The notes beneath the pieces are model-generated. The model was given only the letters and a program-made list of their open reading frames with translations. It was not told the origin of the DNA and did not search any database. 64,000 bases of DNA from Naegleria gruberi (Eukaryota). Of the stretch, positions 1,197 to 7,384 are shown piece by piece; positions within the stretch are counted from its first letter, which is position 1, and the number at the start of each line of letters is the position of its first letter. Made by a program: the position numbers and the translations under genes. The stretch is taken from the NCBI GenBank assembly GCA_000004985.1, contig GG738882.1. One strand, 5' to 3'.

Positions 1197-2056
1197 ACAT
1201 TCGAAAATAATCTTGAATAACGTAATGTTGAATAGTCAAGTGCGATAATCGGATGATATCTTGATTTTGGACTTTGGTGAACCAGCTTAGGTATTATCTG
1301 AATCTGAATCCGAATCTGATCAGGGCATGAAATCAAAATCTCCAATTTTAAATCAAGATTGAAAGGCAACTCTCTCAAATTTGTTGCTATGATAAAGAAC
1401 TGGAATCATGGCCATCCTTCTCCAAAAAGGCAGAATTCATTGCTAAAGGGCAGTACAATCAACAGCATTTTACAAGTTCAGTTCACAGAAAATTTGGAGG
1501 TGCCTTCTTTACGGAAACAAATCTTGCTAATCCTTTAACACCTGCAGAACAAGTTCAATAGAATCCATTACGTATTAAGATACGTGTCAATTATGTGATT
1601 TTCTTGATCTGAATGAACCCTTAAATTCAGGACAATGTATTGCTGGCAACTATGTAGTGAGTAAGAAACGAGATGCTTTGATACAAAAACAAAGAAGGTT
1701 TGTCAGGTTGAGTCCTTTTCTAATGACTTTTATTCAATACAGCTTGCTATTGAAGATCCAAAACGTATCATTGAGATATCAAGGAAAAAAGGTTCCGTGT
1801 GTTATTCTTGACCCTTCCAAACAGGCCTAACAAGTATATTCCAGTTCATTACAACAATCAATACATTTAATATATGACTTGATTAATTTCAAGACTTGGC
1901 GAAATTTCAAATAGTTTCGAAAAAATTTACAAGTCGAGCTTGGGCAATTCTACATTTCGCTCACATCGCAAAAATCCATTAACAAAAAATCGTTAACAGT
2001 CAAGCCAGCATTTGCGAAAAGGGTTTAGCGGGATAATCGGAACTCAAACGAAAAAA

Positions 2057-3127
2057 ATGGAAAAACACTCAACACAACATTTATCGGAATCATTGGAAAC
2101 AAGGAAGAAACAAGATTTTAATGATGATACAATTTATGAAATTTTGTCTTTTTTTAATGATTTTAAATTTATTGTAATGAATTGTGCATTGGTGTCCAAG
2201 CAGTGGTTGAATGTTGTTTTATCATCATGTCGTCATCTTTCATTGGAATGTGGAAGAAAAGTCGAACTGAATGGCCAATTTTTACAAAATATTGCAACTC
2301 TAGAGATTAATACCACTTTTGATAATTACAAAAAACTTGTCTTGATGAAATCACTAACTGAACTTATTGGTTGTAACAATAATATTGGTAATGAAGGAGC
2401 TAAATATATTAGCAAATTGAAACAATTAACTCATCTTTATATTCTTAACAACGAAATTGATGATGAAGGAGCAAAATATATAAGTGAATTGAACCAATTG
2501 GTCAGTCTTGATATTTCTTACAATAATATTGGTGTTGAAGGTGCTAAATACATCAGTGAATTGAAACAATTGACCAATCTTGATATCTCTGTCAATCACA
2601 TTGGTGCTGAAGGAGCTCAACACATAGCAGAAATGAATCAATTAACCATTCTTAATATTTCCACCAATAATATTGGCTATGAAGGAGCTAAATATATTGG
2701 CAAATTGAAACAATTGACATGTCTTACTATTTTTAACAACAATATTGATGTTGAAGGAGCTAAATACATTAGTGAAATGAAACAATTGACCGATCTTAAT
2801 ATTTCTTACAATAATATTGATGTTGAAGGAGCTAAATACATTAGCGAATTGAAACAATTGACCGATCTCGATATTTCTATCAATCAAATTGGTGCTAAAG
2901 GAGTTCAATACATAGCGGAAATGAATCAATTAACCATTCTTTCTGCTTCTCACAATAATATTGGTGATGAAGGAGCTAAATACATTAGTGAAATGAAACA
3001 ATTGACCAATCTTGATATTTCCAACAATAGCATTAGCAATGAAGGAGTAAAATGTATAGAGGAAATGAAACACTTAACAGTTCTAAATATACGTCAGCCA
3101 GTCATGTTTAGTTTTAAAATAGCCTGA
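2057..3127 (+). CDS. F-box-like / RNI-type leucine-rich-repeat protein (about 11 x 24-aa LRRs)
   Basis: First ATG is at 2057 (MEKHSTQH...). The N-terminus has an F-box-like segment, 'IYEILSFFNDFKFIVMNCALVSKQWLNVV'. It is followed by 11 near-identical repeats 'N(N/H)IGxEGAKYISELKQLTxLDIS', a 72-bp DNA periodicity across ~2380-3060. Stop is at 3125-3127. Confidence 0.8.
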   Translation: MEKHSTQHLSESLETRKKQDFNDDTIYEILSFFNDFKFIVMNCALVSKQWLNVVLSSCRHLSLECGRKVELNGQFLQNIATLEINTTFDNYKKLVLMKSLTELIGCNNNIGNEGAKYISKLKQLTHLYILNNEIDDEGAKYISELNQLVSLDISYNNIGVEGAKYISELKQLTNLDISVNHIGAEGAQHIAEMNQLTILNISTNNIGYEGAKYIGKLKQLTCLTIFNNNIDVEGAKYISEMKQLTDLNISYNNIDVEGAKYISELKQLTDLDISINQIGAKGVQYIAEMNQLTILSASHNNIGDEGAKYISEMKQLTNLDISNNSISNEGVKCIEEMKHLTVLNIRQPVMFSFKIA

Positions 3128-3522
3128 AACTGGCCAAGTTGACTTCTAATGATATATAATAACACCACATAAAATTAACAGTACGCGACAGTCTATATAA
3201 AACTACTATTCATGAATTGTAATGTTTTCAAACGGTATTTCACGAGATAATAATCAATGTGCCATTATGAAAAATTACAATTTTAATTACAACAGCTTAA
3301 AAACAACATTTTCTGAATTATTTCACATGGTAATCTATTTTTCGCTGTTGATTACTAAATCTGAATCCTTACTTTAAAAAATGTCAAAACCTTGAAGTAG
3401 GTAAGGTCTTGCTCCTCTAAGTAAAATGCAATCCATTGGCGTTCCATTTCGAATGAAATCTCATAGCACACGACGTAATCTTTAACACAACAAATCCAAA
3501 AATAATCACAAAAAATTGGCCA

Positions 3523-6500
3523 ATGACACGACTCATCCATCAACCTGCTCTGACATGGAGGTTCCAACATCTCCTTCTCCTTTTGTTGTTGCTCAGCTTC
3601 ATTCTACTAGCACATCAGCAAGCAGAAGAAGAATTTCTTGATATTTTCCTTGAATATAGAAACGGAAAGGATTCTCCATCATGTTCTTCATTGCTTCATC
3701 CATGTAGAAGTATTGATTATGCTCTCGATTTATTATCATCATCAAATAATACCAATATTCGAATTAATTTATTGGATGATTATGTTCCTTGTGATTGGAA
3801 ATTTAAAAATTCAAATATTACAAAATTGTTAATATCTTCATCGAATAAGAGAAGTTTTAGTTGTTCTATTGGAGTAGAGGCGACGATTGTGCCATTTGTC
3901 AGATTTCAAAATTTGAATTTGAGGCTTTCAGGAGTTTTTAAAGGAAGTGAATTAGAGGTTGTCGATTGTTTGCTTTATTATTTTTATGCTATATATAATG
4001 GTAGTTTGACTCTGGATAATGTTACTGTTGGAAGTGAATTTATATTGAATGCTTTGCAACAGTCAACTGTATTGACTAGTTCAGAAACTATTGAAAAATG
4101 GGGAACAAAGATACATATTAATTCTGGTGCTATTGAAAAAAGAGAGGGTAAGATTTTGATTAGGAATTCTAGATTTATGGGAGTGGCTATGAGTGCACTT
4201 TACTATTGGGATGGTAATTTGCAAATTGAGAATTGTTCATTTGATTATTCTTTAATTCAATTCGAGTCTGGCCAAATCTATGCAACAGGAAATAATGACC
4301 TTGGAAGACCTGATTTTGTAGTTAGTAGATCTAATTTCTCAAAATCATCTTTTCAATTCGTTGAAGCCAAAAGTGTTACCATTTCGAATAGTCTTTTCAC
4401 CAACAATCTTCCAACTCATATTGGAAAGGTATTTGCAACCTTTAACGCTAAAACAGAATATCCTGCCCTGTATTTATCATCTCTATCTATTCTCAATGTA
4501 AAGATTGATGAAAGCAAATTTACAGGATGTGACATTGTTGGAGCTTTATATTTGGAAGGTGTAGGAATTTATGCAAATATTCAAAATACAATATTTAGTG
4601 GAAACTCAAACAGAAGGGGAGGATCTGCAATAACTGTAAAAGATATTTACAAGTTACATGTTCGTGCAACATTATTCGAAAACAATAATCAGTTATTCGA
4701 ATCGAACAATCTAAAACCAGATGAAGGTGTGGGTGGTGGTTCTATTTTTCAATATCAATCCATGCTTCAGGTTGTTCGGTGCTATTTTTTTAATAATTCA
4801 GCATTAATAGGTGGTGCTATTTTTTCTCAATACGCAAAACAATTTCAATCTTCAAGCAATGTGAGTATTACCAAGTTTTAATTGAAAATTCTAATGCCCA
4901 AAGATGTTTGAAAATAATACAGCTGTTTATGGAGGTGCCTATGCTGCCATTGATTCATTATATACAACAAATATAAAGCTGGAATATTCTTATTTTAATT
5001 GGAATAAGGCCAGCAAATATGGTGGTGCGATTTTCACACTGAAATCTTCACTTTTTTTAGGGCTAGAAAGTTCAGTTTCTGAAAATTATGCTTCCATATT
5101 GGGAGGTGGATTATATACTATTGGAACTAGATCTACAACAACAGGCAATGCCTACTCGAATAACTATTGTGGAAATGGAACACTTTCAAATTATGCATCC
5201 TTTCCAGAGTTTATTTCTTTAACAATTCCAGAAAAACAATTGAATTACACTAATCATATGGGAAATACTAGTATTCCACAATTCGAAATATCATTCGGTG
5301 AGAAAGTTACCCTAAATATTGATATATTTGATCAAATAATTGATCCAACTGTCAATTCATTGACAGAATATGATATTGAAGTCTTTGTCTCAAATAGTAA
5401 CCATGTAGTAGAGTTTCAGAAAATTTCTTCCAATGTTTTGAATGGAATTCTATATTCCAGATCTGAAAAGGAACTATCTGATAGAAATTCCACTTTAACC
5501 TTTACGATCAAAACAACATTATTTACTAAAGAAAGTTATTCTTCAAGTATTTCCATTCCAATTAGAGCAACTCGGTGTAGACCTTGGTTTAGTTTGCAAC
5601 GTGAACAAAAGATTGTAAAAGGAGATTTTGCATATTCATGCCAATTTAACACTCCTCTTATTATTCCATTTATATTTATTGCTTTCTTTATCATTAGTTG
5701 TTTGGCTTGCATTGTAATCACATTTGGTTGTGTTAAATTTCAAGGAATGAGGAGTAAGATTAAAATTCTCCATAAGAAAGAACAAGCAGAAGTGGAATTA
5801 ACTCAAAAATTGTTAGATTTGCAATCTCTGTATGCTTCAGAATTGGAGAGTAAACACTCAATCAAGAATTGGTTAATCAAGCTTGAAGATATTAAGGTTA
5901 TAAAGAAAATTGGAGAAGGAGGCATGGGTGTTGTCTATTTAGCATAGTAAGTTTTAGTATTTCATTTAAAGAGTGATTTCTGACATATCAAAGTTGGAAG
6001 AATGTTGAAGTTGCTTTGAAGAGTATCAAAATAGACGATGATGAAATGGATACTACTGAATTTGAACATGAATCTTCAATGCTTTCATCAATGAGACATC
6101 CAAATATTGTAAACTTTTATGGAGTTGTTCTTTCTGAACAATCCAAATTTATGGTAACTGAATATATGAATGGAGGTTGTTTGGAAAAGTTGATATACGA
6201 ATGTAAAATGAAGAAGAAGCATCTCACTTTGAAACAAAAAATTTCAATTCTTATTGGAATTTCAAATGGAATGAGTTATTTACATGGAGGAAAGGATAAT
6301 TGTATGATTATTCATAGGTGAGTTATTGAAAATGTAAATTATACTAATAGAAGTGATTCAGAGATTTAAAACCTGGAAATATTTTACTTTCTAATGATTT
6401 ATCACCAAAAGTTTGCGATTTTGGATTATCAAAACTTTCCAATGAGAGTTCAAACACTACCAAAACAGGACACGTTGGCACATTGCTTTTCATGAGTCCA

Positions 6501-6992
6501 GAAATTCTATTAGGTAAACATTACAATGAAAAATCAGATGTCTATAGTTTTGCAATCATCATGTGGCAATTAATGTTTGATGAGAATTTATTATTCCAAC
6601 ACAATTATGGAACTAATCAAAAGTTTTCCACAATCATGTCAAAACAGGAAATTGACACATTTGCTCAACTTGCCAATCAGACTTCTCTCCTACTAGTTCC
6701 AAAACTAATATCTGAAGGATTACGTTTGCCTCTTCCTACATTGCCAATTAATTCTCATTCACAAATAATGAAAATGTGGATTAGAGAATATTTCGTTATG
6801 GATGATTTGAAATATTCGAATCAAAATATGAGAATGAGTATTGCACAAGTCGATCCATTTGATAAGTATTTAACAGCTCTTAATTCAGTATTTTCATTGA
6901 TAAGCTCTTCGTGGCGTGAAGATTTTGAAAAAAGACCTTCATTTACAAATCTTGCTGAAGAATTATTAGAGATTAGAAATAAATTAGATTAA
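3523..6992 (+). CDS. Receptor-like protein kinase (TKL-like) with a parallel beta-helix-type ectodomain; 4 exons
   Basis: Exons are 3523..4860, 4904..5946, 5994..6317 and 6362..6992, derived by hand. Donors are GTGAGT(4861), GTAAGT(5947) and GTGAGT(6318). Acceptors are caaAG|(4903), caaAG|(5993) and tcAG|(6361). Introns are 43, 47 and 44 nt, and the frames join. The protein has a signal peptide (MTRLIHQPALTWRFQHLLLLLLLLSFILLA). The ectodomain carries repeated 'GGAIF/GGGLY/NxxxxGGAxY' motifs. The TM helix is 'LIIPFIFIAFFIISCLACIVITFGCV'. The kinase domain spans the introns: G-loop 'IGEGGMGVVYLAY|WKNVEVALK' (VAIK-like Lys), 'HRDLKPGNILLS', 'VCDFGLSK' and 'GTLLFMSPE'. Confidence 0.8.
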
Positions 6993-7312: not shown

Positions 7313-7384
7313 CTCCCGTGCCGGGAATTGAACCCGGATCTCCTGGGTGAGAGCCAGGTATCTTAGCCATTGGACCACACGGGA
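7313..7384 (-). tRNA. tRNA-Glu (anticodon CUC)
   Basis: Reverse complement: TCCCGTGTGGTCCAATGGCTAAGATACCTGGCTCTCACCCAGGAGATCCGGGTTCAATTCCCGGCACGGGAG. The acceptor stem TCCCGTG/CACGGGA and T8 are present. The anticodon stem is CCTGG/CCAGG with loop CTCTCAC, giving U33, anticodon CTC and A37. The T-arm is CCGGG-TTCAATT-CCCGG. It is very similar to canonical eukaryotic tRNA-Glu(CUC). Confidence 0.9.

What the first reader, a model, noticed from the sequence alone, without database searches (positions are those of the whole stretch)
3523..6992. Receptor kinase with a pectate-lyase/PbH1-like beta-helix ectodomain
A four-exon gene encodes signal peptide, ~700-aa ectodomain with repeated GGAIF/GGGLY beta-helix-type motifs, a TM helix and a TKL-like kinase. 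The motifs include HRDLKPGN and DFG, with SPE in place of APE. Receptor kinases with beta-helix (Pmp-repeat-like) ectodomains are not a well-known architecture. The ligand may be a carbohydrate.
Basis: partly seen in the sequence, partly recalled or inferred. Interest (0 to 1): 0.6.

Follow-up and report, generated by a model that had tools for sequence, protein, structure and literature searches.

The report
Amoeba receptor kinase with beta-helix ectodomain
This is a real Naegleria gruberi gene for a single-pass membrane receptor kinase with a bacterial-adhesin-like beta-helix on the outside; the reference genome already lists it as an uncharacterised protein, and relatives occur in other amoebae, so it is an understudied receptor type and not a new kind of system.

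Summary
Window 3523-6992 (+) holds a four-exon gene with GT..AG introns of 43, 47 and 44 nt. It encodes 1111 aa: signal peptide, about 665-aa ectodomain, one TM helix (aa 698-723), a highly conserved juxtamembrane helix, and a complete Ser/Thr-type, TKL-like kinase (HRDLKPGN, DFG, SPE). The window is Naegleria gruberi.

The gene is already annotated as hypothetical protein NAEGRDRAFT_80536 / "FM172" (EFC41988.1). An intronless homologue and the N. lovaniensis homologue are collinear across all three joins.

The same architecture exists in a Naegleria family and, with tyrosine-kinase-like domains, in Protostelium and Planoprotostelium. I found no paper describing it.

The most likely function is surface sensing or adhesion, with a polysaccharide or particle ligand coupled to dimerisation-driven kinase signalling. 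The ligand is entirely inferred. I rate it a new variant of a known kind, of moderate interest.

The parts
3523..4860 (+). Exon 1 (aa 1-446): signal peptide and most of the beta-helix
   Evidence: ORF and GTGAGT donor at 4861. The reference model EFC41988.1 ends this exon at 4770 instead.
3523..3615 (+). Signal peptide coding region (aa 1-31, poly-Leu core)
   Evidence: N-terminal hydrophobic segment. A 3-nt Leu-codon indel between strains lies here. The intronless homologue L003 also has an N-terminal hydrophobic leader.
3616..4860 (+). Ectodomain part 1 (aa 32-446): N-terminal cap and right-handed parallel beta-helix
4591..4860 (+). Pmp-type FxxN...GG(A/S/G)(I/L/Y) repeats, first part (aa 357-446)
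   Evidence: Motif listing. This is the region hit in Chlam_PMP-repeat proteins.
4771..4860 (+). 30 codons (aa 417-446) treated as intron in the reference annotation but coding in this model
   Evidence: Contains C420, F422, N425 and G430-A432, invariant in the 5-member family alignment that includes an intronless homologue. Model pLDDT here is 83-95.
4861..4903 (+). Intron 1 (43 nt, phase 0)
   Evidence: GTGAGT..AAAG. The paralogue's ORF P0103 breaks at the same place.
4904..5946 (+). Exon 2 (aa 447-794): end of the beta-helix, stalk, TM, juxtamembrane region and kinase G-loop in one ORF
   Evidence: Single 347-codon ORF. This shows that ectodomain and kinase belong to one gene.
4904..5125 (+). 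Pmp-type repeats, second part (aa 447-520)
   Evidence: FENN..GGAY, FNWN..GGAI and SENY..GGGLY.
5198..5650 (+). Membrane-proximal all-beta (Ig-like sandwich) stalk domain (aa 545-695) with the conserved Cys pair C671/C692
5657..5734 (+). Transmembrane helix (aa 698-723), followed by a basic stretch (KFQGMRSKIKILHKK)
   Evidence: Kyte-Doolittle maximum of 2.99. It is the only internal hydrophobic segment.
5774..5890 (+). Highly conserved juxtamembrane amphipathic helix (aa 737-775, KKEQAEVELTQKLLDLQSLYASELESKHSIKNWLIKLED)
   Evidence: The most densely invariant part of the A1 family alignment, which ends at the kinase G-loop.
5891..6971 (+). Protein kinase domain (aa 776-1105; spans introns 2 and 3), with C-lobe insertions
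   Evidence: Pfam PK_Tyr_Ser-Thr 1.2e-51 and Pkinase 1.1e-50, with 324 residues covering a 263-position profile. All catalytic motifs are present. Best PDB match is CTR1.
5947..5993 (+). Intron 2 (47 nt, phase 2, inside the Tyr795 codon)
   Evidence: GTAAGT..AAAG. N. lovaniensis has an intron at the same position. The paralogue models P0102 and P0106 break off there.
5994..6317 (+). Exon 3 (aa 795-902)
6318..6361 (+). Intron 3 (44 nt, phase 2, inside the Arg902 codon of HRD)
   Evidence: GTGAGT..TCAG. The join restores IIHRDLKPGN, as in the intronless P0105.
6362..6992 (+). Exon 4 (aa 902-1111 and the TAA stop)

Best explanation
The locus encodes a type I transmembrane receptor Ser/Thr (TKL-like) kinase of the amoeboflagellate Naegleria gruberi. 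Its extracellular part is a non-enzymatic right-handed parallel beta-helix built partly from Pmp-type (FxxN/GGAI) coils. This sits on an Ig-like stalk closed by a conserved Cys pair. A single TM helix and a highly conserved amphipathic juxtamembrane helix link it to a catalytically complete kinase. Proposed mechanism (inferred): the long beta-helix face binds an extracellular polymer or particle surface, such as a bacterial or environmental polysaccharide or glycoprotein. Engagement clusters or dimerises receptors, the juxtamembrane helices pair, and the kinase domains trans-phosphorylate and signal to the cytoskeletal, feeding or differentiation machinery. Shown here: gene structure, topology, fold, intact catalytic motifs, family conservation. 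Inferred: ligand class, dimerisation, downstream output. The confidence given (0.55) is for the whole statement including the inferred sensing mechanism; confidence that this is a beta-helix-ectodomain receptor kinase gene is about 0.9.
Against: No transcript, protein or phosphorylation data were available. No ligand evidence of any kind exists. This protein's own Pfam Chlam_PMP score is sub-threshold (11.2 bits, E 0.53). The stalk model is only moderate (pLDDT 67). The family alignment has only five sequences, so 'no catalytic cluster' is weak negative evidence. The strain comparison gives about 6 non-synonymous and 4 synonymous changes in the ectodomain, too few to show diversifying selection. 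The gene name FM172 may mean the genome authors placed it in a flagellar-motility-associated set. This is my recollection of the naming scheme and is unverified. If correct, it would point to a role in the flagellate stage rather than in feeding.
Confidence: 0.55

Rival explanations
1. The ectodomain is a surface-tethered polysaccharide-degrading enzyme (lyase, glycosidase or epimerase) and the kinase reports on or regulates that activity.
Against: Sequence identity to these matches is 8-16% (mostly 8-13%), so the match is to the fold only. No acidic or basic residue in the beta-helix is invariant in the family, and the few partly conserved ones are scattered over different coils. Sequence similarity is to Pmp-type repeat proteins, which are adhesins, and not to CAZyme families. 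Neither Pfam nor PDB sequence searches hit any enzyme family.
Confidence: 0.08
2. It is chiefly an adhesion molecule for substrate or cell-cell contact, as with Trichomonas Pmp proteins. On this reading the kinase mediates outside-in adhesion signalling and the protein does not detect a soluble or prey-derived ligand.
Against: Nothing here separates adhesion from ligand sensing, and the two overlap mechanistically with the main explanation.
Confidence: 0.3
3. The locus is a decaying or mis-assembled gene, a pseudogene or a chimera of a surface protein and a kinase, with no function as a receptor.
For: No transcript evidence was available. The reference annotation differs in one splice site. 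The paralogue's reference model is chimeric and truncated.
Against: The reading frame is intact over 1111 codons in an AT-rich genome. Exon 2 alone spans helix, stalk, TM and kinase G-loop. All catalytic residues are intact. Exons diverge ten times less than the 5' flank between strains, with only an in-frame indel. The same architecture sits in a single uninterrupted ORF in L003 and in N. lovaniensis.
Confidence: 0.04

Closest known systems
Naegleria family members: N. lovaniensis KAG2379569.1 (C9374_006686), N. gruberi paralogue EFC44993.1 (NAEGRDRAFT_48784), and metagenome ORFs P0105 and P0106
   Same: They share the signal peptide, degenerate beta-helix with Pmp coils, stalk with Cys pair, TM, near-identical juxtamembrane helix and HRDLKP(G/A)N kinase with the same C-lobe insertions. 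Identity is 37% over the N-terminal ectodomain (aa 32-446) to the N. gruberi paralogue, 26-45% over the ectodomain-to-G-loop alignment to the four relatives, and 50-51% in the kinase.
   Different: The N-terminal caps differ, as do the number of coils and the intron content (none in P0105). None has been characterised.
Protostelium nocturnum (EukProt EP01117) and Planoprotostelium fungivorum PROFUN_10621 Pmp-repeat receptor kinases
   Same: They have a signal peptide, a long Chlam_PMP/Beta_helix ectodomain, a Cys pair near the membrane, a single TM and a cytoplasmic kinase.
   Different: They carry many more, canonical Pmp repeats (ectodomains of 950-1470 aa). They have no detectable counterpart of the Naegleria juxtamembrane helix. 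Their kinases carry tyrosine-kinase-type motifs (HRDLAARN/HRDLSARN, PxxWxAPE) and share only 29-38% identity with this one, about the same as plant RLKs. Whether the fusion is shared or convergent is unresolved.
Chlamydial polymorphic membrane proteins (Pmp autotransporters)
   Same: FxxN and GGA(I/L/V) tetrapeptides mark the coils of a beta-helix on the cell surface (PMC11166332, PMC10715098).
   Different: Those are bacterial type V autotransporters with a C-terminal beta-barrel. This protein has a eukaryotic signal peptide, an alpha-helical TM and a kinase, only about 6 recognisable repeats, and a sub-threshold Pfam score.
Trichomonad Pmp-like surface proteins
   Same: They are eukaryotic type I membrane proteins with Pmp-repeat ectodomains and are implicated in adhesion (PMC6701047).
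   Different: As described in that paper, they have short cytoplasmic tails and no kinase domain. I did not compare sequences.
Plant and protist receptor-like kinases (LRR-RLKs, malectin-like RLKs such as HERK1, oomycete LRR-TMKs) and Entamoeba TMKs
   Same: They share the overall logic of a variable sensory ectodomain, one TM and a TKL/Pelle-like Ser/Thr kinase. Plant RLK kinase domains are among the best non-family sequence hits.
   Different: The ectodomain fold differs: beta-helix here, versus LRR solenoid, malectin or Cys-rich repeats there. A survey of protist TMKs reports that about 40% of protist TMK ectodomains lack Pfam annotation, and its main text does not mention beta-helix or Pmp types (PMC10463195).

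Membership tests
Type I transmembrane receptor protein kinase | N-terminal signal peptide, exactly one internal TM helix, kinase domain on the cytoplasmic side | tested here: met
   Hydropathy shows only aa ~9-32 and 698-723. A basic stretch follows the TM. The kinase lies at aa 776-1105. No dedicated SignalP or TMHMM run was possible.
Type I transmembrane receptor protein kinase | Catalytically competent kinase (G-loop, VAIK Lys, HRD Asp, DFG Asp) | tested here: met
   GEGGMGVV 783, K803, HRDLKPGN 901 and DFG 921. Enzymatic activity itself cannot be tested here.
Type I transmembrane receptor protein kinase | Ligand-dependent activation | not testable with these tools
   This needs biochemistry or cell biology.
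TKL (tyrosine-kinase-like) Ser/Thr kinase group | Closest sequence relatives are TKL kinases; Ser/Thr-type catalytic loop | tested here: inconclusive
   The best PDB hits are CTR1 (8.5e-39), MLK1 and TAK1, but also the Tec/Src tyrosine kinases. The Pfam PK_Tyr_Ser-Thr and Pkinase scores are about equal. No kinome-wide phylogeny was run.
Tyrosine kinase (RTK sensu stricto) | HRDL(A/R)A(A/R)N catalytic loop and P(I/V)(K/R)W(T/M)APE in the activation segment | tested here: not met
   This protein has HRDLKPGN and GTLLFMSPE. The Protostelium receptors do carry the tyrosine-kinase-type motifs.
Chlam_PMP (PF02415) repeat proteins | Repeated FxxN and GGA(I/L/V) motifs | tested here: met
   Four non-overlapping FxxN-x(3-22)-GG units pass the strict pattern and about six are visible by eye at aa 357-520. 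The shuffled expectation is 0.03, with 0 of 5000 shuffles reaching the observed count.
Chlam_PMP (PF02415) repeat proteins | Pfam gathering threshold (20.6 bits) | tested here: not met
   This protein scores 11.2 bits, E 0.53. The family members P0107 (26.0 bits) and P0106 (24.4 bits) pass.
Chlamydial Pmp autotransporters | C-terminal autotransporter beta-barrel; bacterial outer-membrane location | tested here: not met
   The C-terminal part is an alpha-helical TM plus a kinase in a spliced eukaryotic gene.
Pectin-lyase-like right-handed parallel beta-helix fold | Three-stranded coils stacked into a right-handed helix | tested here: met
Pectate/polysaccharide lyases and GH28-type hydrolases | Conserved catalytic acidic/basic residues in the groove | tested here: not met
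   No invariant D, E, K, R or H in the helix across five family members. No Pfam or PDB sequence hit to enzyme families. The sample is small, so this is weak.

The most novel reading that the evidence does not exclude
Phagotrophic amoebae from two very distant eukaryotic supergroups, Heterolobosea (Naegleria) and Amoebozoa (Protostelium and Planoprotostelium), independently fused Pmp-type beta-helix adhesin modules to kinases. Naegleria used a Ser/Thr TKL-like kinase and the protostelids a tyrosine-kinase-like one. This would create a class of pattern-recognition receptors for bacterial or fungal surface polysaccharides, a protist analogue of plant carbohydrate-sensing receptor kinases. The helix module might have been acquired from bacteria.
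Probability: 0.2. Interest if true: 0.65.

Novelty: new variant of a known kind. Interest (0 to 1): 0.35.

Why it matters
Little is known about how free-living amoebae sense prey, surfaces and each other. About 40% of protist transmembrane-kinase ectodomains carry no domain annotation (PMC10463195). This locus gives a concrete, structurally interpretable example: a beta-helix of the kind that binds polysaccharides or host surfaces, wired directly to a kinase and conserved within Naegleria, a genus that includes the pathogen N. fowleri. It offers a testable candidate receptor through ectodomain glycan or particle binding and kinase activation. It also corrects the reference gene model, and it flags two N. 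gruberi reference models whose architecture is hidden from domain searches. The gain is incremental: a new ectodomain class for a familiar receptor logic, already present unnoticed in databases.

Tried and rejected
(1) The word-indexed protein search failed three times to return the gene's own annotated protein or the family members used as query. I first thought the gene was unannotated. An exact cluster look-up then showed EFC41988.1 in the same 90% cluster as the metagenome ORF P0100.

(2) The spliced protein could not be submitted to the HMMER representative search or to structure prediction. I used contiguous exon translations instead.

(3) Exact look-ups of neighbouring ORFs, tried as a way to view the reference annotation, failed.

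(4) A PDB sequence search with the ectodomain gave nothing up to E=10.

(5) There is no paralogue within the window.

(6) The AlphaFold-database fold library was unavailable, so I could not survey beta-helix-kinase fusions structurally.

(7) Ten literature searches found no description of Pmp/beta-helix receptor kinases and no mention of NAEGRDRAFT_80536 or FM172. The N. gruberi genome paper is not held. The supplements of PMC10463195 and PMC5804921 are not held.

(8) I considered common origin versus convergence with the Protostelium receptors. Kinase identity of 29-38% is hardly above that to plant RLKs. The shared membrane-proximal Cys pair is too weak to decide, so the question is unresolved.

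(9) I rejected the enzyme hypothesis for the helix because no conserved charged residues exist.
Full report
**Source and gene model**

Four neighbouring ORFs are exact matches to Naegleria gruberi proteins EFC42061-63 and EFC41991 on a 381,539-bp scaffold. Composition is about 30-36% G+C.

Reading the sequence and joining 3523-4860, 4904-5946, 5994-6317 and 6362-6992 gives an uninterrupted 3336-nt CDS of 1111 codons plus stop. The three short introns are 43, 47 and 44 nt, with GTGAGT or GTAAGT donors and AG acceptors. Exon 2 is decisive for the architecture. One 347-codon ORF runs from Pmp-type repeats through the stalk, the TM helix and the juxtamembrane region into the kinase glycine loop. 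Ectodomain and kinase therefore belong to one gene.

**Support for the joins without transcripts**

Several lines of evidence support the three joins.

- A metagenome ORF, P0105 on contig L003, encodes the whole architecture in a single uninterrupted reading frame. It includes an upstream hydrophobic leader and is collinear with this protein across all three junctions.
- N. lovaniensis KAG2379569.1 (P0107) is also collinear. It has an intron at exactly the position of intron 2, inside the codon after VYLA.
- The prokaryote-style ORFs or models of the N. gruberi paralogue (P0102, P0103) and of P0106 break off exactly at introns 1 and 2.
- A 99%-identical metagenome contig (L001) differs at 22 of 396 positions in the 5' flank but at only 16 of about 2,900 exon positions. 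Its one exonic indel is a 3-nt Leu codon in the signal peptide.

**The gene is already annotated**

My first searches suggested otherwise, because the word-indexed search never returned the self protein. The exact cluster look-up then listed EFC41988.1 / XP_002674732.1 / D2VMG6, 'hypothetical protein NAEGRDRAFT_80536', gene name FM172, 1081 aa.

Its sequence is identical to the present model except that aa 417-446 are missing. The reference model uses a GTTGTT donor at 4771, giving a 133-nt intron, instead of GTGAGT at 4861. The skipped 30 codons are in frame and encode a complete Pmp coil (VVRCYFFNNSALIGGAIFSQ...). Their C, F, N and GGA positions are invariant in all five family members, including the intronless one. 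They are modelled with pLDDT 83-95.

**Topology and kinase**

Hydropathy finds only the N-terminal leader and aa 698-723. The TM is followed by KFQGMRSKIKILHKK.

Pfam gives PK_Tyr_Ser-Thr at 1.2e-51 and Pkinase at 1.1e-50 over aa 776-1100. That is 324 residues for a 263-position profile, so the C-lobe carries insertions. These insertions are conserved in P0105 and P0107.

All catalytic motifs are present: GEGGMGVV, K803, HRDLKPGN, DFG, SPE, DVYSF and KRPSF. The catalytic loop and GTLLFMSPE are of the Ser/Thr type. The closest solved kinases are CTR1 (8.5e-39), followed by Tec/Src tyrosine kinases, MLK1 and TAK1. This pattern is typical of TKL kinases, but no kinome phylogeny was run.

**Ectodomain**

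FxxN...GG(A/S/G)(I/L/Y) units occur at aa 357-520 and are far above shuffled expectation. Local HMMER comparison shows that similarity to Chlam_PMP-repeat proteins is confined to about aa 320-556.

This protein's own Pfam Chlam_PMP score is sub-threshold, at 11.2 bits against a cut-off of 20.6. The relatives P0107 and P0106 pass for Chlam_PMP, and P0106 also passes for Beta_helix.

- AlgE4 and AlgG epimerases, PL6 lyases
- the adhesins PfbA and EtpA, and the autotransporter passengers Vag8 and UpaB

Identity to these is 7-16%. The refutation criterion 'no beta-helix prediction' is therefore not met.

Within the beta-helix the only family-invariant residues are G, A, F, N, C, S, V and L. No conserved charged cluster is present. 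This argues for a binding scaffold and against an enzyme.

**Family and distribution**

An exhaustive HMMER search with aa 32-446 found only 40 proteins at E<=1e-3. The strong hits are:

- the N. gruberi paralogue EFC44993.1, at 37% identity. Its reference model is fused to an unrelated 5' part, truncated at intron 2 and has no Pfam hit at all.
- N. lovaniensis KAG2379569.1, which has the full architecture.
- several metagenome ORFs.

In the family alignment, which ends at the kinase G-loop, the most conserved segment is the juxtamembrane helix KEKAExELTQKLLDLQSLYxSELESKHSxKNWLIKxED. It is nearly invariant, while the four relatives share only 26-45% identity with this protein over the same alignment.

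The combination of Pmp or beta-helix, TM and kinase also occurs in Protostelium nocturnum transcripts and in Planoprotostelium fungivorum PROFUN_10621. Those proteins have far more repeats and tyrosine-kinase-type motifs (HRDLAARN, PxxWxAPE). Their kinase identity to this protein is only 29-38%, close to that of plant RLKs. Whether the two lineages share the fusion or evolved it independently remains open.

**Literature**

Chlamydial Pmp repeats are known to form beta-helix coils (PMC11166332, PMC10715098). Trichomonads have single-pass Pmp proteins implicated in adhesion (PMC6701047). [quoted passage not shown] A cross-kingdom survey reports that about 40% of protist TMK non-kinase domains are unannotated, and its main text does not mention beta-helix or Pmp types (PMC10463195). 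No paper found names this gene or describes this architecture.

**Mechanism**

Shown here: a secreted-type leader, a long beta-helix and Ig-like stalk outside, one TM, a conserved amphipathic helix, and an intact Ser/Thr-type kinase inside.

Inferred: the helix face binds a polymeric or surface ligand, either polysaccharide or glycoprotein. Ligand-induced clustering is transmitted through TM and juxtamembrane helix pairing to kinase trans-activation. All eight amino-acid differences between the two strains lie in the signal peptide or ectodomain, and none in the cytoplasmic codons compared. This fits a faster-evolving recognition surface, but the numbers are too small for a selection test.

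**Verdict**

The object is an already annotated but uncharacterised gene with a slightly mis-annotated intron. It belongs to a small family of Naegleria receptor kinases with a beta-helix ectodomain, a new variant of the receptor-kinase theme that is present in databases but apparently undescribed. Interest is moderate, at 0.35.

Noticed in passing
window 4771-4860: The reference annotation (EFC41988.1, NAEGRDRAFT_80536) splices out 30 in-frame codons by using a weak GTTGTT donor. The segment encodes a conserved Pmp coil present in all relatives, so the reference model is probably wrong at intron 1.
   Followed up: yes
window 3523-6992 (gene name in UniProt D2VMG6): The gene carries the name 'FM172'. 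As I recall, FM numbers in the N. gruberi genome paper mark families associated by phylogenetic profile with flagellar motility. I could not verify this because the paper is not held. If true, it is an odd assignment for a receptor kinase and hints at expression or function in the flagellate stage.
   Followed up: partly
N. gruberi paralogue P0102 = EFC44993.1 (another scaffold): The reference model of the paralogue is fused at its 5' end to about 285 unrelated residues and stops at the kinase G-loop, where intron 2 lies. It therefore has no Pfam hit at all, and its receptor-kinase nature is invisible in databases.
   Followed up: partly
window 7313-7384 (-): A tRNA-Glu (anticodon CTC) gene lies about 320 nt downstream of the kinase gene's stop codon, on the opposite strand.
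   Followed up: no
window 7619-28040 (-): A giant cell-surface gene: ORFs of 2458 and 4823 codons, separated only by an assembly gap of Ns. It has dozens of EGF/teneurin-type EGF repeats, a REJ domain (4.2e-39) and a C-terminal TM segment, making it a polycystin/REJ-like giant adhesion or receptor protein next to the receptor kinase.
   Followed up: partly
window 2012-3127 (+): An upstream gene encodes a ribonuclease-inhibitor-type leucine-rich repeat protein (LRR_6, 1.5e-40) with about ten near-identical 'NNIGxEGAKYISELKQLTxLDIS' repeats.
   Followed up: no
protein aa 671-692 (window 5576-5641); also P0001, P0002, P0003 and P0034: Both the Naegleria (C-x19-21-C) and the Protostelium/Planoprotostelium (C-x14-15-C) Pmp-kinases have a Cys pair just outside the membrane. 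This is a possible shared membrane-proximal module or a coincidence.
   Followed up: partly
L001 (ENA ERZ929261 contig k127_40540) versus window 3127-6551: An environmental metagenome contains a second N. gruberi-like haplotype of this locus at 99% identity. All eight amino-acid changes lie in the signal peptide or ectodomain, and none in the cytoplasmic part covered.
   Followed up: yes
protein aa ~975-1085 (window ~6580-6910): The kinase C-lobe carries about 60 extra residues, split around the conserved EGLRLP(L/I)P motif. These insertions are conserved in P0105 and P0107 and are thus a family hallmark of unknown role.
   Followed up: no
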